Of a stretch of DNA of 64,000 nucleotides, positions 1,372-61,158 are shown piece after piece (position 1 is the stretch's first letter; each line of letters starts with the position of its first letter). Origin of the DNA: a phage. Under the pieces are notes generated by a model. The model saw only the letters and a program-made list of their open reading frames with translations, searched no databases and had not been told where the DNA came from. The stretch lies in sequence record PZ402305.1. One strand, given 5' to 3'. Both the position numbers and the translations under genes were made by a program.

Positions 1372-3396
1372 ATGAATTTAACAAGACCTAATAGTGCGAT
1401 AGCCGATCTGGTAGAAGCTACTTATCGAAAACGTCGCAGCTTTGAGGCAGGTTTTACATTACGTAATTCCCGTGAAGTTTTGCTGTTAGCAGCAGAAGGG
1501 AATTATTACCAATGGAAAGGAACTTTTCCTAAAGTAGTTCCAGCAAACTCTACGCCAGCCACCACAGGTGGTATTTCTTCCCTTGCATGGCAAAGTGTTG
1601 GGACCGCTGATGATATAGCAATTATCAATGCCAAGTTTACGGCAATGCAGCAACAAATTGATGATCTGTCGGAAACAATACCTGAAGCTGGTAAATCGGC
1701 TTATCAGATCGCACTTGATAATGGTTTTGTTGGAACAGAAGCACAATGGCTTGCCTCTTTGAAAGGGGATACTGGTGCTCAACTCAATATTAAAGGATCA
1801 TTAGCAAGCACTAGTGAACTACCATCCACAGGTAACGTTGCAGGGGATGGTTATATCGTAGGCGATGTAATCTACGCTTGGGATGGTTCTGTTTGGAAAC
1901 TTATTTCTTCTCTTGGACCAGAAGGTAAATCAGCTTACGAGGTATGGTTGGCAGATGGTAATACAGGATCTGTTTATGATTTTCTTACCTCTATAAAAGG
2001 TGATAAAGGCGATGTTGGTCCTACAGGGCCACAGGGAGCACCTGGTGTTAACGCCAACGGTTTTGATTATCGTGGAGATTTGCCTTCTACAAGTAACTTA
2101 CCACAACCTAACTCTGAAAACGTAAGCCAAGCTTATTCTATCAGTGGTAATCTTTATGTCTCTAATGGGACAGCTTGGGTCAACATGGGTAATATTGTTG
2201 GTCCTCAAGGTCCACAAGGTGAGGCAGGTAAAGACGGTCTAGATGGAACAGATGGAGATGAAGGGAAATCTGCATATCAAAGTTGGCTGGATGCTGGTAA
2301 TGAAGGGACAGAAGTAGATTTTATTGCCTCGCTTAAAGGTCCAAAAGGAGACAAGGGTGATCAAGGAGAGCGAGGTCCACAAGGCGAATTAGGTCCACAA
2401 GGACCAGTAGGCGCAACAGGATCAGGCTTAGAGATTATCGGGGTTCTGAACAGCGAAGCTGAACTTCCTCCGACTGGAGAAGTAGGTGATGCATATAAAA
2501 TTAATAATGATTTGTATGTTTGGGTCCAAGATGCTACGGAATGGATGAATGTTGGCAGTCTCGGAGGAACATCAATTACAGCTAAAGGTCATGTTCCGAA
2601 CAGTGAAGCTCTCCCTGTTTACAATAACTATGGTGATGCTTACTTAACTGAAGACACTAGTAATCTTTACATCTATACCTACGATCAAGACACCAATTCC
2701 GCATCTTTTGTTGACATGGGAAGTATTAAAGGCGACAAAGGTGAAAAAGGGGATAAAGGAGATAAGGGTGATCCTGGAACAAACGGAACCAACGGTACTG
2801 ATGGGACCAACGGTAAGGACGGCGCACAGTGGTTTGTAGCAACAACTAATCCAGTCGCAGGAGACGGTGTTATCAATGATTACGCCTTCAATACTACCAC
2901 TGGAGCAGTGTTTAAGAAAACAGATTCTTCTACGTGGACACTTATAGGAACTCTTCCTAGTATACCAGAAGCCCCTCAAGACGGCTTGACGTATGGTCGT
3001 TCTGATGGAAACTGGATCGAAATATCAGGATCAGATCCTACGGAAGCTATAACACCAACTAGAGTTACAGCAGGTTTCATGGAACTTGAAACAACTACTG
3101 CCAACTCTGGAGCATCTTGGACTCCTTCTGGAACTTCCAATATGTATGTTGTTACAGTAACTGACGCTCTGACAGTTGGAGCATGGCCTGGTGTCACTGG
3201 CTCTACAAAACCTAAAGCGTTTTCAGCAATGATTTATTTGATTCAAGATACAACGGGACACACGGTTACACTAGATGCGTCTTATGGAGCACTAAATGAT
3301 ACAGAAATAGCAACTACTGCTAACGCAGTAACAATTTTGCAATTAACGTATCCTGGTGTGGGTGATATCGTGGACATGGTTGTTGTAACACGATAA
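1372..3396 (+). CDS. collagen-like repeat tail fibre protein
   Basis: Several G-X-Y collagen-like runs (GPQGPQGEAGKDGLDGTDG; KGDKGEKGDKGDKGDPGTNGTNGTDGTNGKDG) and three copies of a GKSAYxxWLxxGNxG..DF..S(L/I)KG phage-fibre repeat; RBS aggagag upstream; strong terminator downstream. Confidence 0.75.
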   Translation: MNLTRPNSAIADLVEATYRKRRSFEAGFTLRNSREVLLLAAEGNYYQWKGTFPKVVPANSTPATTGGISSLAWQSVGTADDIAIINAKFTAMQQQIDDLSETIPEAGKSAYQIALDNGFVGTEAQWLASLKGDTGAQLNIKGSLASTSELPSTGNVAGDGYIVGDVIYAWDGSVWKLISSLGPEGKSAYEVWLADGNTGSVYDFLTSIKGDKGDVGPTGPQGAPGVNANGFDYRGDLPSTSNLPQPNSENVSQAYSISGNLYVSNGTAWVNMGNIVGPQGPQGEAGKDGLDGTDGDEGKSAYQSWLDAGNEGTEVDFIASLKGPKGDKGDQGERGPQGELGPQGPVGATGSGLEIIGVLNSEAELPPTGEVGDAYKINNDLYVWVQDATEWMNVGSLGGTSITAKGHVPNSEALPVYNNYGDAYLTEDTSNLYIYTYDQDTNSASFVDMGSIKGDKGEKGDKGDKGDPGTNGTNGTDGTNGKDGAQWFVATTNPVAGDGVINDYAFNTTTGAVFKKTDSSTWTLIGTLPSIPEAPQDGLTYGRSDGNWIEISGSDPTEAITPTRVTAGFMELETTTANSGASWTPSGTSNMYVVTVTDALTVGAWPGVTGSTKPKAFSAMIYLIQDTTGHTVTLDASYGALNDTEIATTANAVTILQLTYPGVGDIVDMVVVTR

Positions 3397-47557: not shown

Positions 47558-47613
47558 TATTTTAACTTTTTTCATTTTTAGAACAAAGGTGTCACTTTGT
47601 AGCACAGAAATAA

Positions 47614-47652
47614 GGCTCCTACAACACTGTAGAGAGCCTATTATTTTGTCCT
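47614..47652 (+). terminator. imperfect hairpin with T-rich tail after NADAR gene
   Basis: ggctcctacaacactgtagagagcc followed by tattattttgtc. Confidence 0.4.
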
Positions 47653-47800
47653 ATACAAACACTTATCTTTTTCAGTTTGCATCATTAGGATTCGATCTAG
47701 GTGGGTTCCTGAAGGTCTGCCAATAAGATTAAAGGTTATCTCAAATTACCCCTACTTGTTATCTCAAAAATTCCTCAAATTATTTAAACTTTTTAAGAAT

Positions 47801-47986
47801 TTACAAAAGTGAAAGTTGAAAACCAAAATTTAAAGTTTAGGAAAATTATCTTAAAATGTTAGATACAAAACAAAACTCAAAAGTCAAGGAAAATTTTAAA
47901 AATTTTGCGCGCCCACAGTATTTAAAGTTTTTTTGCTTTTACAAAAATGAAAGTACAAAAGCAAAATTTAAAGTTTACAAAAATTT
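47801..47986. repeat. two ~47 bp direct repeats (iteron-like) in AT-rich non-coding region
   Basis: ttacaaaagtgaaagttgaaaaccaaaatttaaagtttaggaaaatt (47801-47847) vs ttttacaaaaatgaaagtacaaaagcaaaatttaaagtttacaaaaattt (47939-47986). Confidence 0.6.
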
Positions 47987-48024
47987 ATGCAGATGGGAAT
48001 GAGAAGAGTTCTCATATGGAAATG

Positions 48025-48046
48025 CAAATGATAATGATTCGCATTT
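48025..48046. promoter_or_regulatory. Fur-box-like near-palindrome A
   Basis: caAATGATAATGATTCGCATTt; resembles GATAATGATAATCATTATC. Confidence 0.35.
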
Positions 48047-48083
48047 AGGTTTATAAATGAGATTGATTCTTATTCGATAAGGT

Positions 48084-48104
48084 AAATGATAATCATTCTC
48101 ATTT
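48084..48104. promoter_or_regulatory. Fur-box-like near-palindrome B
   Basis: AAATGATAATCATTCTCATTT; one mismatch to core TGATAATCATTATC; 21-bp quasi-palindrome. Confidence 0.4.
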
Positions 48105-48362
48105 AGAGAATGACGCGCAGGGGCGGTGTTTGTCTCGCGTTCCCGTGTCCCCTCGCCATGTAATAAGAATAACAGATCCAGCCAGGAAAGCAAGCGATTA
48201 TTTCATCTTTACATTTCTTTACAAATATATAGCGCCCAGCCTACCGGCGATCAACCTTCCAACCAGTGCCCCTGGTATGTTAGCCCCGCCTTTACGCCGT
48301 GGGGTGGCGCTTCCTCTTCTGTATGTAAAACAGTATAAGCCCGATCCCTGGGCTTGTCAAGA

Positions 48363-48629
48363 TTATTTTTTGTTTTCTTGCCAGGATAGGACACCTAACC
48401 AAAAATACATATCGCCCCGCGCCCCTGGCGGGATCTTGCTTTCCCCGCCGCCACTGCAAGCCCATAGATAACCATTTGCGAACGTATCAAAATGATCTAT
48501 CTCTTCCACCTTATGATCGCCCAGGTTGAGAACGGTTTCAACCTTTAAGCCCGTTGCGCTTGCTACCTGGTGCACCGTGCCGCCTTGCCAGCCCAATGAG
48601 TGCATAAGGTGTAATGTAGTAGTTGTCAT
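48363..48629 (-). CDS. hypothetical protein in GC-rich island
   Basis: 88 aa ORF with RBS-like aaagggcg upstream; distinct GC-rich codon usage; followed on minus strand by TTGACA-17-TATACT promoter at ~48318-48346. Confidence 0.3.
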   Translation of the reverse strand: MTTTTLHLMHSLGWQGGTVHQVASATGLKVETVLNLGDHKVEEIDHFDTFANGYLWACSGGGESKIPPGARGDMYFWLGVLSWQENKK

Positions 48630-48737
48630 GGTATCGCCCTTTCTTTGTTGTGCGCCCTGGTTGGCGCGGTAGAAAGATGATAGCCCTTTCCTTTATATAT
48701 AGCAAGCAAAAAGAAAATAAAAAGATTGAAAAAGTGG

Positions 48738-58794: not shown

Positions 58795-59163
58795 ATGAGC
58801 AAATCAGCAATTAAAGCACTTGAAAAAGCACAAGAAGTGATCGCAACGTCAACCACTGGCGCAAAGGTTAATCTCGTTGGTTATCTGACAGATGAAACTA
58901 TCCGTAAAAATTGGCGTAATGCTGATTTACTGGCTTGCTTATTGATTAATAGTGTCGCTAATGCTTTCCAGTGTGAAACAGCCGAGAGCCTGGAGGAAAA
59001 CTTGTTTGATAATATGGATCAAGCCATTGAAACCTATATACAATCAAACATGGATAGCTGGAACAGTAAAACATGGCCCGACAATTTACGCGATACAACT
59101 GATCAACTGATCCGCCTTGCCTTGATGGTTGAACGCGATAACGTTCACAACCGCACAAAGTAA
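58795..59163 (+). CDS. early protein (122 aa)
   Basis: RBS aagaggaaaag; last gene of block. Confidence 0.6.
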   Translation: MSKSAIKALEKAQEVIATSTTGAKVNLVGYLTDETIRKNWRNADLLACLLINSVANAFQCETAESLEENLFDNMDQAIETYIQSNMDSWNSKTWPDNLRDTTDQLIRLALMVERDNVHNRTK

Positions 59164-59171
59164 GATTATAC

Positions 59172-59200
59172 AAGGGGCGCACCAAGCGCCCTTTCTTTTT
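59172..59200 (+). terminator. rho-independent terminator (copy 2)
   Basis: aaGGGGCGCaccaaGCGCCCtttcttttt; same core as 54087-54114. Confidence 0.8.
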
Positions 59201-60273
59201 GCCCGAATAATGTTGATAGATTCCGCCTATGGAAAACCGACACAGAACAAAACTGAATAAATAGCGGTATCGAGCTAATCAACCATTAAACGAATAACCA
59301 TACCTCCCAGGGTAACAGGCTGTTAGAGAGCCATTTAGAGCGGTTAAAATCGATCAACAACCAACAAAAAACCATCAAAAACACCCTTTTACCTCCTTTC
59401 TAGTGCAATGATAACCATTATCATCTATCCATGTTTATCTATGCAATATAAGTGCATAACTATAATGTTGATAATAGTTCGCAACAACTAACTAACCAAC
59501 AACCTAAAACAATAAGCAAACTAATCATAATCAAAGGAATAATAGCAAGATGATTGATAACGACAAACAATCAAACCATGATGAATACTAAGCAAGATAA
59601 CGATAACACGACAAAACAACCAACTAACGAACAATAACAAACGAAACCATTAAAATAATAACTATTAGCAAAATAGTGCCTGAATGAAATCATTACAAAA
59701 CGAATCATTCACAGGATCATCATTAGCACGCTATGCCGGACACATAGCGAGCTAATAATAAGCCAACTACACCCCAACAATCATAACCATCGGTGATGGT
59801 TATTTCTTGTTACTGCGTAGCTTGCAATAATTGCAAGCGTAATACGCTTACACTTATTGCGCTGGCTTATTATTAGCATTATATGTAATTACCAAGATCA
59901 TAACATTAGCGCAATAACAATAATCATTGTGGTAATTACAAGATGAAATAATCGCTATCGCTCAAAGATCATTAGCAAGATGAATAATTGCACGTAGCAA
60001 CATGAGCGAATAGCGACAGGTTGCATAGTGTGCACATAGATGTACACGTAGTGTATAAACATACAGGAAAATAAAGGCTAATCTTTTGGGGGCGAATACT
60101 ATCGCGTAGCGATATGTTGAGCACTAAGAGAAGAGATAAACCTTAATCATGGGGGCGTAAATATCCGCAGGATTGCCAACGGCGATCCGGTAGGATGTTG
60201 AGCATCTTCTCTTAAACGTAAATAAAATCAGAAAATTCTTGATTTATTTTAGTTTTTATGTTAATAAACGTTT

Positions 60274-60295
60274 AAATAATAATCATTCTCATATG
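60274..60295. promoter_or_regulatory. Fur-box-like near-palindrome C
   Basis: AAATAATAATCATTCTCATATG; shares ATAATCATTCTCAT core with box B at 48084. Confidence 0.35.
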
Positions 60296-60452
60296 AATAA
60301 TAGTCTGCTTGTCATGAGCGGGATCAGTTGACAATGTTCCGTCATATGATGAAGTTGCCAAACCATTGATAAATAAGTGTTTGTGTGATTTATAATCAAG
60401 TGGCCCACCTTGTCGCTATGTTGGCATGAGCCTTGCATAAGTCATTGAATAC

Positions 60453-60478
60453 GAATGATAATTATTCTCATTCGCATG
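60453..60478. promoter_or_regulatory. Fur-box-like near-palindrome D
   Basis: GAATGATAATTATTCTCATTCGCATG; shares GATAAT..ATTCGCAT with box A at 48025. Confidence 0.35.
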
Positions 60479-60813
60479 ATATTTGAGAATTGTCGCTGCG
60501 TGGACCTGACGGCCCGAAAATTCGCGTTAAGCACTTCTTACGTATGCGCCATGATTTTTGCCATATGATATTGATTCTATTAGATATTCTTGCCATGATT
60601 GCCATGAAACAGGGTGTCCCGAAATAATCTCTCCCCGTAGATATTTTGGGTTACTTTTTATACAAGAGTGGGGTGTCAAAAATAATCGGTATATATGGGA
60701 TAATTGATAGGAATCCCCTATGATAATTCGATTGTAATTCCCTGAGATTGATCGTATGATGTTGGTGATTGATGATTGCCATGAAAGATGGCTAACAATG
60801 AGAGGAGATTATC

Positions 60814-61158
60814 ATGCAAGAGAGTAAAAATGTTCCGTTGAGTAGTTTACGTCTAATGAAGTTTTACAAAGCTTGGCTTGCTGGTGAGGTAGAAGGTCAC
60901 ACAACGAGTGGTTTGTGCATATGTTTGATTAAGTATGTAGAGGGAACATATCCTGATGAACTGTTACCTCGTCTACAACAGGAGATGAAATCACAGTTTA
61001 TTGGTGCAGGACTGGATTACAATTTCCCGTTTAATGAAGGTGGTTATGAGGAATACACCTTCGAACATAAAAAACATATTTGCCATAAAAACAAACATCG
61101 TATACAATGGGTGCTAGATAGAATTCAAGATTACGAAGGAGAGAAAAATGACAAATAG
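60814..61158 (+). CDS. hypothetical protein, tandem paralog 1
   Basis: RBS gagaggag; shares (F/L)YKAW(L/I)A...TTSGLC.CL..YV......R....(M/K).QF..AGLDYN.PFN...........H.N..R(I/L)QWV.DRI(Q/E)D with next gene. Confidence 0.55.
   Translation: MQESKNVPLSSLRLMKFYKAWLAGEVEGHTTSGLCICLIKYVEGTYPDELLPRLQQEMKSQFIGAGLDYNFPFNEGGYEEYTFEHKKHICHKNKHRIQWVLDRIQDYEGEKNDK

What the first reader, a model, noticed from the sequence alone, without database searches (positions are those of the whole stretch)
59200..60810. 1.6 kb ORF-free region with strand skew, perfect palindromes and repeats
No ORF of 60 aa or more lies on either strand. The first ~600 bp are visibly A- and C-rich on the plus strand with many (C)AAC/ATAAC units. 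Two perfect 15-bp palindromes sit side by side (ttgcaataattgcaa, aagcgtaatacgctt). Short direct repeats (gattgccatgaaa twice, gggtgtc..aaataatc twice) and GATAAT motifs cluster before the next gene block. The cgtag/catag motif of the early leaders also recurs. Candidate functions are a replication origin, a packaging or terminal-repeat boundary, or a long non-coding RNA locus.
Basis: seen in the sequence. Interest (0 to 1): 0.6.

Follow-up and report, generated by a model that had tools for sequence, protein, structure and literature searches.

The report
Phage genome ends with folded element
This gene-free stretch is where the two physical ends of a phAPEC8-like phage chromosome meet in the assembled sequence: a 329-base terminal repeat, the first early promoters, and about 1 kb of end-associated signals that include a conserved, apparently undescribed folded element and sites resembling host iron-regulator (Fur) boxes.

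Summary
Positions 59186-60813 are the longest stretch of the window without an ORF of 60 aa or more (1628 bp). It holds the window's most A+C-rich segment, the two adjacent 15-bp palindromes and the quoted repeats.

The window is a Phapecoctavirus (phAPEC8-like myovirus). Positions 60201-60529 are 95-99% identical to the direct terminal repeat (DTR) of relatives. Schickermooser carries an exact 329-bp copy at both record ends. More than 10 other records start or stop exactly at these two boundaries. phi92 annotates a 343-bp DTR at the homologous place. So the region is the collapsed junction of the right and left genome ends.

- **Cut sites:** both share GTTR|AGCA.
- **Right of the repeat:** the first early promoters.
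- **Left of the repeat:** a terminator, Fur-box-like palindromes, a G-poor spacer, and a 159-nt multi-hairpin element (59721-59879).

The two palindromes belong to that element. It shows strong covariation, is absent from Rfam, and has an analogue in Certrevirus phages.

The origin option is not. The ncRNA option remains open. The DTR is already known for this subfamily. I found no description of the folded element or the Fur-like boxes in Rfam or the paper library.

The parts
59172..59204 (+). Intrinsic terminator closing the rightmost operon (stem AAGGGGCGC/GCGCCCTTT plus a T-run).
   Evidence: Terminator scan. Annotated as a terminator at the homologous place in phAPEC8, ASO2A, Schickermooser and Paula. 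94-100% conserved in the genus.
59205..59400 (.). Moderately conserved non-coding block containing the invariant GCGGTATCGAGCTAATCAA (59264-59282). Function unknown.
   Evidence: Multi-lineage alignment. 89-92% identical within close relatives and 48-61% in other lineages. Its small ORFs are not conserved.
59404..59484 (.). Module of two Fur-box-like palindromes: 59404-59424 (TGCAATGATAACCATTATC, 15/19 to the Fur consensus) and 59466-59484. They flank the inverted repeat ATGCA..TGCAT.
   Evidence: Both boxes are present at the same place in the window, Wec-type, muut/phi92, Tr1 and KP2025 lineages.
59340..59720 (+). G-poor, A/C-rich, AT-rich spacer (A 47%, C 21%, G 10%, T 22%; C/G 2.0). The composition is conserved across lineages but the sequence is not. 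It carries ATCATT/TAATCATT repeats near its right end.
   Evidence: G is 6-12% and C/G is 1.7-2.8 in six lineages. Only 49-58% identical in other genera.
59721..59879 (.). Conserved folded element. Hairpin A is 59729-59749 (loop CCGGACA). Long-range stem P1 is 59751-59765 paired with 59863-59877. P2 (59767-59771 with 59816-59820) encloses hairpin B (59783-59803). Stem D is 59838-59844 with 59855-59861, overlapping the second palindrome.
   Evidence: RNAalifold. Covariance model R1 finds 25 instances, 20 of them distinct. 98.5% of cells are paired and 12 of 46 pairs show double changes. Covariation score is 0.205 against 0.064 shuffled and at most 0.039 slid. MFE z-scores are -7.9 (+ strand) and -9.75 (- strand). 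It is the best-conserved segment across genera. It occurs once in the window.
59880..60087 (.). Hypervariable pre-repeat segment. It contains inverted repeat 59884-59901/59923-59940 and a CGTAG/CATAG cluster at 59993-60055.
   Evidence: Only 28-54% aligned identity, even to close relatives.
60088..60123 (+). Upstream copy of the module [GGGGGCGAA - hairpin TATCGC/GCGATA - TGTTGAGCA], a pseudo cut site (G60119|A60120).
   Evidence: Two tandem TGTTGAGC modules are also present in Tr1, KP2025 and muut.
60151..60204 (+). Module [GGGGGCG - hairpin 60170-60188 - TGTTG|AGCA] containing the left DTR boundary (cut between 60200 and 60201).
   Evidence: Schickermooser, BI-EHEC, WPEC4/6, 3A1/10C3/118_SA_NWU and Ro121lw records all begin at the base homologous to 60201. 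TGTTGAGC is invariant in 8 lineages.
60201..60529 (.). Single collapsed copy of the 329-bp direct terminal repeat. Inside it are the invariant TCTTGATTT (-35-like / IHF-like inverted repeat, 60224-60244) and Fur-box-like palindromes at 60272-60292 and 60451-60475.
   Evidence: There is an exact 329-bp repeat at both ends of MK373788, mapping to 60201-60529 at 96.7% identity. 65 records are 95-99% identical. phi92 annotates DTR-L and DTR-R of 343 bp at the homologous place. The literature reports 328 bp (PMC6563267) and 342 bp by PhageTerm (PMC12210895). Fur-like boxes.
60515..60545 (+). Right DTR boundary: CCCGAAAATTCGCGTTA|AGCACTTCTT (cut between 60529 and 60530).
   Evidence: Schickermooser, Mt1B1_P17, WPEC1/2, phi92, BME3 and phi1_175008 records end at the homologous base. 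GCGTTAAGCAC is invariant in 8 lineages.
60595..60813 (+). Left-end promoter and leader region of the first early operon. It holds promoter-like sites 60599-60628 (TTGCCA-18-AATAAT, followed by GTAG at 60637), 60657-60686 and 60732-60760. It also holds the repeated GGGTGTC..AAATAATC units, 24-bp repeats at 60699-60743, a ribosome-binding site and the ATG at 60814.
   Evidence: Promoter scan. Repeats. The layout '-10, 7-8 nt, GTAG' matches annotated early promoters of phAPEC8. Positions 60638-60846 are about 95% identical even in Justusliebigvirus muut.

Best explanation
The region is the place where the right and left ends of the linear virion chromosome of a phAPEC8-like (Phapecoctavirus, Stephanstirmvirinae) phage are joined in a circularly closed or permuted assembly. 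This corresponds to the concatemer junction.

Shown:
- Positions 60201-60529 are the single collapsed copy of a 329-bp direct terminal repeat.
- The two boundaries carry the same oriented core, GTTG|AGCA on the left and GTTA|AGCA on the right.

Inferred:
- The phage terminase or nuclease cuts concatemers sequence-specifically at these two sites. The repeat is duplicated during processing, as in T7-type DTR phages, so that every virion gets a copy at both ends.
- Just right of the repeat lie the tandem promoters of the first early operon, the first genes on the left end.
- The last ~1 kb of the right end is deliberately non-coding. In order it holds a strong terminator, Fur-box-like operators, a G-poor unstructured AT-rich spacer, a 159-nt conserved multi-hairpin element, and one or two [hairpin + TGTTGAGCA] modules ending at the left cut site.
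- My best guess for the folded element is a cis-acting signal for recognising or processing the junction (pac-like recognition or hairpin-assisted repeat duplication), folding as single-stranded nucleic acid.
- My best guess for the G-poor spacer is an insulator (Rho loading on read-through RNA) or an easily melted flank.
- My best guess for the Fur-like boxes is binding of host Fur.
For: Identity of the phage: 74 phage records match at 82-99%.

DTR:
- Exact 329-bp repeat at both ends of Schickermooser, mapping to 60201-60529.
- In one search, Mt1B1_P17, BI-EHEC, WPEC1/2/4/6, Schickermooser, three SA_NWU phages and Ro121lw begin at query base 1 or end at base 329.
- phi92 DTR-L/DTR-R annotation, with its right end falling exactly at CGCGTTA|.
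- Published DTRs of 328 bp (PMC6563267) and 342 bp by PhageTerm (PMC12210895). [quoted passage not shown]

Boundary motifs are invariant in 8 lineages while the repeat interior diverges to 51-65%.

Promoter layout right of the repeat.

The non-coding gap is syntenic in Phapecoctavirus, Justusliebigvirus, Tr1, Klebsiella relatives and even Certrevirus.

The folded element always sits on the right-end side of the repeat and is the best-conserved segment. An analogous element exists in Certrevirus.

The T7 precedent that repeats must be duplicated, with a hairpin intermediate, is summarised in PMC4281155.
Against: - No sequencing reads of this phage were available. That its own virion DNA ends at 60201 and 60529 is inferred from 95-99% identical relatives.
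- Cutting at GTTR|AGCA is inferred from record ends, not from biochemistry.
- The role of the folded element in packaging is a guess. Long-range pairing across ~100 nt with a variable inserted hairpin is more typical of RNA or ssDNA than of duplex DNA.
- The distance from the element to the repeat varies (about 200-320 bp).
- The hairpin in front of the left cut site is absent in Justusliebigvirus.
- The promoter-like sites are no more numerous than in shuffles (13 against 11.5).
Confidence: 0.8

Rival explanations
1. The core of the region is a non-coding RNA gene. A ~160-nt highly structured RNA (59721-59879) would be made either with the G-poor unstructured stretch as its 5' leader (+ strand) or from the opposite strand. 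It would act in trans, for example as a packaging RNA, an anti-defence decoy or a regulator. The terminal repeat would merely lie next to it.
For: - 46-pair structure with 98.5% pairing, 12 pairs with compensatory double changes, and a covariation score far above the shuffled and slid controls.
- Long-range P1 stem, with lineage-specific hairpin insertions in a loop, as in RNA families.
- Invariant loop sequences.
- MFE z-scores of -7.9 and -9.75.
- Analogous architecture in Certrevirus.
- Not coding.
Against: - No Rfam family matches, even at E <= 10.
- No conserved sigma-70 promoter or intrinsic terminator brackets it.
- Almost no G.U pairs. The few non-Watson-Crick cells favour the minus strand in Stephanstirmvirinae (14 A.C against 3 U.G on the + strand) but the plus strand in Certrevirus. 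No consistent transcribed strand therefore emerges, as would be expected if both DNA strands matter.
- No transcriptome study of these phages was found.
Confidence: 0.3
2. The region is a replication origin. Protein-binding boxes (Fur-like / TAATCATT repeats) plus an AT-rich, strand-asymmetric unwinding element and a structured priming signal would start DNA synthesis near the right end.
For: - The spacer is 66-76% A+T with extreme strand asymmetry.
- TAATCATT is 6-9 times over-represented in the gap in five lineages.
- Multi-hairpin single-strand structures are used as priming signals in some ssDNA phages and plasmids (own knowledge).
Against: - No DnaA-box cluster: 1 match in the region and 18 in the window against 20.8 expected.
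- Only short, weak tandem repeats.
- Cumulative GC skew keeps rising on both sides, with only a local dip, and genes are co-oriented.
- A second non-coding region at ~47.6-48.7 kb, with direct repeats and the same boxes, is at least as origin-like.
Confidence: 0.12
3. The GATAAT-type palindromes are operators for the host iron regulator Fur. Fur-Fe2+ bound at 59404-59484, 60272-60292 and 60451-60475 would either gate transcription entering or leaving the repeat according to iron status, serve as an architectural factor at the junction (as IHF does at lambda cos), or be titrated away from the host regulon by replicating phage DNA. This is compatible with the best explanation and concerns one layer of it.
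For: - The Fur consensus GATAATGATAATCATTATC is confirmed in PMC4506495.
- 31 matches of at least 14/19 in the window, against 5.3 +/- 3.1 in local-composition shuffles. They cluster in the two non-coding regions.
- Site density is 1.5-3.1 per kb in the gap against 0-0.5 per kb outside it, in six lineages. Best sites reach 17/19 (muut, Wec181) and 18/19 (DU_PP_IV, GATAATGAGAATCATTATC).
- The boxes are positionally conserved while the surrounding sequence is not.
Against: - Similarity to a consensus is not binding.
- The phage copies share a consistent deviation (ATTCTCA instead of ATTATCA), which could equally mark a phage-encoded regulator.
- AT-rich palindromes are easier to hit in AT-rich DNA, although the shuffles kept local composition.
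- No literature on Fur sites in these phages was found.
Confidence: 0.4
4. The stretch is decayed coding sequence or selectively neutral filler between two gene blocks.
For: Parts of it (59880-60087) are hypervariable and indel-rich. Relatives differ by the presence of one extra small gene just upstream.
Against: - A gap of 1.5-1.8 kb is kept at the same place in at least five lineages and two subfamilies.
- It contains invariant motifs, a covarying structure and exact genome ends.
- No small ORF is conserved.
Confidence: 0.03

Closest known systems
Direct terminal repeats of Stephanstirmvirinae: phi92 DTR-L/DTR-R (343 bp), Schickermooser (328/329 bp), BME3 (342 bp)
   Same: Homologous sequence (95-99% within the genus). 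Same two boundaries to the base. Same position, between the small-gene block ending in a terminator and the first early operon.
   Different: In this window the repeat is internal and present once, because the source assembly is permuted. The window also carries a duplicated pre-cut module (60088-60123) and lacks the phAPEC8_0017-like gene that many relatives have just upstream.
Concatemer junction of T7-group phages: short exact terminal repeat, right-end non-coding region with repeat arrays, a gene-less promoter and a palindrome/hairpin implicated in repeat duplication
   Same: Short exact DTR. Early promoters immediately inside the left end. A non-coding, repeat- and palindrome-rich region on the right-end side of the repeat. 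The need to duplicate the repeat from a single junction copy (PMC4281155; the rest from own knowledge of T7).
   Different: No sequence similarity. A myovirus of ~150 kb that presumably uses host RNA polymerase. The element here is a 159-nt multi-branched fold rather than a simple palindrome. No evidence that transcription pausing recruits terminase.
Lambda cos (cosN/cosB with IHF site) and other terminase recognition regions that use a host DNA-bending protein
   Same: The idea that a host DNA-binding protein (here possibly Fur, and an IHF-like site at 60224-60244) sits inside the terminase recognition region.
   Different: Lambda makes cohesive ends, not repeats. Fur has no known architectural role in packaging. 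This is untested here.
phi29 pRNA (a ~170-nt structured packaging RNA encoded next to a genome end)
   Same: Size, multi-helix fold and location a few hundred bp from a chromosome end (own knowledge).
   Different: No sequence or model similarity (Rfam negative). An unrelated phage type with a different packaging motor. No evidence of transcription.
T5 injection-stop-signal region (a long non-coding stretch with repeats and palindromes near the terminal repeat)
   Same: A long ORF-free, repeat- and palindrome-rich region associated with a terminal repeat (own knowledge).
   Different: T5's repeat is ~10 kb and encodes genes. Two-step injection is not known for this group. No sequence similarity was tested.

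Membership tests
Stephanstirmvirinae direct terminal repeat (genome ends) | Sequence homologous to the DTR of characterised relatives | tested here: met
   60201-60529 is 96.7% identical to the Schickermooser DTR and 95-99% identical to 65 records.
Stephanstirmvirinae direct terminal repeat (genome ends) | Boundaries coincide with physical or record ends in independent genomes | tested here: met
   More than 10 records from several laboratories start at the base homologous to 60201 or end at 60529. phi92, BME3 and phi1_175008 end at the homologous CGCGTTA|.
Stephanstirmvirinae direct terminal repeat (genome ends) | The same sequence is present at both ends of this phage's own virion DNA (sharp read termini, ~2x coverage) | not testable with these tools
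   No reads are available. The window holds a single internal copy, as expected for a collapsed or permuted assembly.
T7-type site-specific concatemer junction | Conserved recognition or cut motif at the repeat boundaries | tested here: met
   GTTG|AGCA and GTTA|AGCA. TGTTGAGC and GCGTTAAGCAC are invariant in 8 lineages while the repeat interior diverges.
T7-type site-specific concatemer junction | Palindrome or hairpin on the right-end side that takes part in repeat duplication | tested here: inconclusive
   A conserved folded element lies 200-320 bp left of the repeat. Its participation in processing is untested.
Any described RNA family (Rfam 15) | Covariance-model match | tested here: not met
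   No hit at gathering thresholds in the whole window. Only 4 chance-level hits (12-19 bits, far below thresholds) at E <= 10 in 59000-61000. No tRNA or tmRNA.
Structured nucleic-acid element (generic) | Base pairs maintained by compensatory changes above controls | tested here: met
   98.5% paired. 66 cells with double changes, against 18.3 in shuffles. Covariation 0.205, against 0.064 shuffled and at most 0.039 slid. Independent prediction by RNAalifold.
Structured RNA (as opposed to DNA) | Consistent G.U tolerance on one strand, with flanking promoter and terminator | tested here: inconclusive
   14 A.C against 3 U.G on the + strand in Stephanstirmvirinae, but G.U on the + strand in Certrevirus. 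No conserved promoter or terminator.
Fur box (host ferric uptake regulator operator) | Match to the 19-bp consensus GATAATGATAATCATTATC, enriched over background | tested here: met
   15/19 at 59404 and at 60451-60475. 17-18/19 in relatives. 31 hits against 5.3 expected. 5-12 times denser in the gap in six lineages. Consensus from PMC4506495.
Fur box (host ferric uptake regulator operator) | Binding by Fur and iron-dependent effect | not testable with these tools
   Needs EMSA, ChIP or a Fur-titration assay, and fur-mutant infections.
Replication origin | Initiator boxes or iterons, AT-rich unwinding element, and a skew or transcription polarity switch | tested here: not met
   DnaA boxes are not enriched. 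No iteron array. No polarity switch. Only the AT-rich criterion is met.
Rho-dependent terminator (rut site) | At least 80 nt of unstructured RNA with C>G, downstream of a transcription unit | tested here: inconclusive
   C/G is 2.0 over 380 nt in the window and 1.7-2.8 in relatives, directly after the last operon. Termination itself is not testable here.
Protein-coding gene(s) | Open reading frame kept open across relatives | tested here: not met
   No ORF of 60 aa or more. Small ORFs acquire stops or vanish in distant lineages.

The most novel reading that the evidence does not exclude
The 159-nt multi-hairpin element (59721-59879), with its Certrevirus analogue, is a new class of end-associated folded nucleic acid that rV5-like myoviruses need for genome maturation. 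It could be a trans-acting packaging or processing RNA comparable in role to phi29 pRNA, or a single-stranded DNA fold that primes duplication of the terminal repeat. The clustered Fur-consensus sites would make this step, or early transcription, responsive to host iron status.
Probability: 0.2. Interest if true: 0.75.

Novelty: new variant of a known kind. Interest (0 to 1): 0.45.

Why it matters
Practical value: the result tells annotators of the many permuted Phapecoctavirus records where the true chromosome ends are (60201 and 60529 in this window). It also shows that the 1.5-kb 'empty' gap should not be filled with spurious small ORFs, as several GenBank records do.

Scientific value: how myoviruses with short exact terminal repeats recognise, cut and duplicate the junction is poorly understood outside the T7 group. 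This region offers a compact set of conserved candidate signals that are directly testable by mutagenesis. They are two cut sites with a shared core, a pre-cut hairpin module, and a covarying 159-nt fold that is better conserved than the repeat itself.

The Fur-consensus sites are conserved at the genome ends of phages from two subfamilies. If real, they would be an unexpected link between host iron sensing and a strictly lytic phage.

Tried and rejected
- Rfam at gathering thresholds and at E <= 10, and ARAGORN, found nothing.
- Protein-based locus search in IMG/VR with the downstream gene gave only one locus.
- Pattern scans with the invariant palindrome gave 4 IMG/VR loci, 47 metagenome loci of which about 9 were true, and 24 bacterial-genome loci of which none was true. 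The element therefore appears phage-restricted.
- Small-ORF conservation test: rejected coding.
- DnaA boxes and tandem repeats/iterons give no origin signature.
- The sigma-70 promoter scan is not above shuffles. I could not define a conserved promoter for the folded element on either strand by eye. A putative TTGATT-17-TAnnnn promoter inside the repeat lacks the conserved -7 T, so I left it as a note.
- The strand-of-folding test by G.U against A.C gave opposite answers in the two subfamilies, so I dropped an initial lean towards a minus-strand RNA.
- The similarity of TGTTGAG after the Certrevirus element to the left cut motif is not conserved among Certrevirus relatives, so I did not use it.
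- No Certrevirus record ends in this gap, so the position of their termini could not be tied to the element.
- Literature searches for non-coding features, transcriptomes or Fur sites of these phages found nothing relevant.
- A short-query search for the Fur-like box in E. coli genomes was judged infeasible and was not run.
Full report
**What is there**

The window is a phAPEC8-like myovirus (genus Phapecoctavirus, subfamily Stephanstirmvirinae). The 1.8 kb around the finding matches 74 phage records at 82-99% identity. In annotated relatives (phAPEC8, ASO2A, Schickermooser) the same ~1.5 kb is left unannotated. It lies between a block of small genes that ends in a terminator and the next block of small genes on the same strand.

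- Positions 59186-60813 are the longest stretch of the window without an ORF of 60 aa or more (1628 bp; the next longest is 417 bp).
- The stretch contains the window's maximum of A+C (0.717, five standard deviations above the mean) and of AT skew.
- The two perfect 7-1-7 palindromes sit at 59822-59836 and 59835-59849.
- The quoted direct repeats are all present.
- No small ORF inside is kept open in distant relatives.
- No tRNA and no Rfam family matches.

**The central result: the physical genome ends lie here**

Korf et al. reported a 328-bp terminal repeat for the relative Schickermooser (PMC6563267). Its GenBank record carries an exact 329-bp repeat at both ends, and that repeat maps to window 60201-60529 at 96.7% identity.

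I searched with exactly this 329-bp segment:
- 65 records are 95-99% identical over the full length.
- Many independent records begin at query base 1 or end at base 329. These are Mt1B1_P17, BI-EHEC, WPEC1/2/4/6, three SA_NWU phages and Ro121lw. Several have a second copy at the other record end.

In the sister genus, phi92 annotates DTR-L (1-343) and DTR-R at the homologous place. Its right end, and those of BME3 and phi1_175008, fall exactly at the homologous CGCGTTA|. BME3's 342-bp repeat was called with PhageTerm (PMC12210895). A recent paper states that Stephanstirmvirinae genomes end in direct terminal repeats (PMC12695924).

The window contains the repeat once, internally. The source assembly is therefore permuted, and 59200-60810 is the collapsed right-end/left-end junction. 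That this particular phage has the same ends is an inference from near-identity, because reads were not available.

**Anatomy, from a multi-lineage comparison**

I aligned the gap of the window with Schickermooser, phiWec181, an IMG/VR contig, muut and phi92 (Justusliebigvirus), Citrobacter phage Tr1 and Klebsiella phage KP2025.

*The boundaries.* The repeat interior diverges (65% to the Wec group, 51-58% to other genera), but the boundaries are invariant. They read ..TGTTG|AGC.. on the left and ..GAAAAT(T)CGCGTTA|AGCAC.. on the right. Both share the oriented core GTTR|AGCA.

*The pre-cut module.* In most lineages the left site is preceded by GGGGCGAA and a hairpin. The hairpin's sequence varies but its pairing is kept. 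In the window this module is duplicated, at 60088-60123 and 60151-60204.

*Right of the repeat.* Three promoter-like sites lie at 60599-60628, 60657-60686 and 60732-60760. The first site is followed by GTAG 8 nt after the -10 box. This is the same layout as in annotated early promoters of phAPEC8, where GTAG starts a conserved 5' hairpin (GTAGGGCGGCAATGGTGCCGCC). The promoter scan as such is not above chance, so these assignments rest on layout and conservation.

*Left of the repeat, in order:*
- a strong terminator (59172-59204);
- a moderately conserved block;
- two palindromes resembling Fur boxes that flank an inverted repeat (59404-59484);
- a G-poor spacer;
- a folded element (59721-59879);
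- a hypervariable stretch.

**The folded element**

RNAalifold, run on ten diverse sequences, independently predicts the following:
- a 7-bp hairpin A with loop CCGGACA;
- a 15-bp long-range stem P1 (GCTAATAATAAGCCA / TGGCTTATTATTAGC, 97 nt apart);
- enclosed by P1: P2 plus hairpin B, the invariant hairpin C, and stem D.

A covariance model built from this alignment finds one copy in the window. It finds 24 more in relatives, IMG/VR and metagenome contigs, 20 distinct sequences in all.

On that alignment:
- 98.5% of cells are paired.
- 12 of 46 pairs carry compensatory double changes (66 cells, against 18 in shuffles).
- The covariation score is 0.205, against 0.064 for shuffles and at most 0.039 for slid partners.

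Some lineages carry an extra hairpin inserted in the loop of stem D. The element is the best-conserved segment of the whole gap across genera (72-78%). It was not found in bacterial genomes.

A more GC-rich but architecturally analogous element occurs in the syntenic gap of Certrevirus phages (Vequintavirinae), again with compensatory changes. It consists of a 5' hairpin around GCCGGA, an 18-bp long-range stem and inner hairpins.

Whether it folds as RNA or as single-stranded DNA is open:
- Both strands fold far better than shuffles (z -7.9 and -9.75).
- Non-Watson-Crick cells favour the minus strand in Stephanstirmvirinae but the plus strand in Certrevirus.
- G.U pairs are almost absent.
- I found no conserved promoter or terminator around it.

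**The skewed stretch**

The A/C-rich impression reflects G depletion of the plus strand. G is 10% and C/G is 2.0 over 59340-59720. In five other lineages G is 6-12% and C/G is 1.7-2.8, while the sequence itself is only about 50% conserved between genera.

What is conserved is composition, not sequence. That points to a physical property: unstructured plus-strand RNA or DNA, and easy melting. Directly downstream of the last operon, C>G unstructured RNA is what Rho loads on. I therefore propose a fail-safe insulator that keeps read-through transcription out of the junction. An unwinding flank is the alternative. Both are inferences.

**Fur-box-like sites**

The GATAAT motifs are parts of palindromes of the form AATGATAATCATTCTCATT. 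They match the 19-bp Fur consensus GATAATGATAATCATTATC (PMC4506495) at 14-15 of 19 positions in the window. In relatives they reach 17-18 of 19.

- Matches of at least 14/19 number 31 in the window, against 5.3 +/- 3.1 in shuffles that keep local composition. They cluster in this gap and in a second non-coding region near 48 kb.
- In six lineages, including Certrevirus, site density is 1.5-3.1 per kb in the gap against 0-0.5 per kb outside.
- The box core TAATCATT is the most over-represented k-mer of the gap in five lineages.
- Two boxes lie inside the repeat and two lie 700-800 bp to its left, at conserved positions.

Binding by Fur is a hypothesis. A phage regulator with a similar operator is the alternative.

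**Rivals and verdict**

- An origin is not supported. There is no DnaA-box or iteron cluster and no polarity switch.
- Neutral filler is excluded by positional, motif and structural conservation.
- An ncRNA gene remains a live possibility for the folded element. It is not exclusive with the terminal-repeat explanation.
- The closest known system in logic is the T7-group concatemer junction. It also has a short exact repeat, early promoters just inside the left end, a non-coding repeat- and palindrome-rich right end, and a need to duplicate the repeat, with a hairpin intermediate proposed (PMC4281155, and own knowledge). There is no sequence relationship.

The terminal repeat itself is already known for this subfamily. 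I found no description of the shared cut-site core, the covarying 159-nt element, its Certrevirus analogue or the Fur-like boxes in Rfam or in the paper library.

I rate the finding as largely explained by ordinary phage biology, with a moderately interesting unexplained component.

Noticed in passing
window 47558-48700: A second conserved non-coding region. It holds two strong Fur-box-like palindromes (48024-48048, and 48082-48106 at 16/19), ~45-bp direct repeats (47805-47850 and 47940-47990) and a GC-rich stretch (48110-48350). It is conserved in 144 records of both genera, and parts are repeated 2-4 times per genome. It is at least as origin- or regulator-like as the finding.
   Followed up: partly
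L001 (phAPEC8) 556-575, 937-956, 1787-1806, 3202-3221: The motifs annotated as 'PHIRE promoters' (GTAGGGCGGCAATGGTGCCGCC) lie just downstream of sigma-70-like -10 boxes and form a stable hairpin. They look like conserved 5' leader stem-loops of early transcripts rather than promoters.
   Followed up: partly
window 59163-59195, compared with L004 2519-2972 and L001 5059-5512: Many relatives carry an extra 420-nt gene (phAPEC8_0017 / ESCO5_00013 homologue) with its own terminator between the 122-aa ORF and the gap. The window lacks it. The terminator sequence is duplicated around the insertion point, suggesting gain or loss by recombination between terminators.
   Followed up: no
window 60088-60123 and 60151-60204: There is a tandem duplication of the pre-cut module GGGGCGAA - hairpin - TGTTGAGCA. 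Only the second copy is followed by the repeat. Schickermooser has one copy. Tr1, KP2025 and muut have two.
   Followed up: partly
L092 (Pectobacterium phage DU_PP_IV) 4927-6611, and L093-L097: Certrevirus phages have a syntenic ~1.7-kb gap with at least 7 Fur-like boxes by eye (3 reach 14/19 or more in the scan) and an analogous folded element. A 21-nt motif ACGTTCCCACGGATCAAGGGA is repeated upstream of, and inside, the long stem. phiTE has a 35-nt insertion in a loop.
   Followed up: partly
L009 (muut) 2502-2563: Four tandem 16-nt units (TAATCATTTCATACAG), annotated as repeat_region, lie directly upstream of the folded element. The window has three ATCATT copies at 15-17-nt spacing at the same place (59689-59724).
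   Followed up: no
window 58795-59163 (122-aa ORF): This is the last gene before the gap. It has 42-55% identical homologues in unrelated phage groups (Kuravirus such as SU10, Webervirus-like Klebsiella phages). In several Kuravirus records it lies within ~1 kb of a record end.
   Followed up: no
Records: Near-identical phapecoctaviruses and justusliebigviruses are deposited as Campylobacter, Pseudomonas, Acinetobacter and 'Dompiswa' phages. Several records (for example PsgM04F, FKP3, EP57, ETEC-TG) fill this non-coding gap with up to 11 tiny 'hypothetical protein' CDSs.
   Followed up: no
window 60224-60244: The inverted repeat AAATCAGAAAATTCTTGATTT lies inside the terminal repeat, with TCTTGATTT invariant in 8 lineages. 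It matches the IHF consensus WATCAANNNNTTR at 12/13 on the minus strand. It is also a -35-like TTGATT followed at 17 nt by a TAnnnn hexamer in five lineages.
   Followed up: partly
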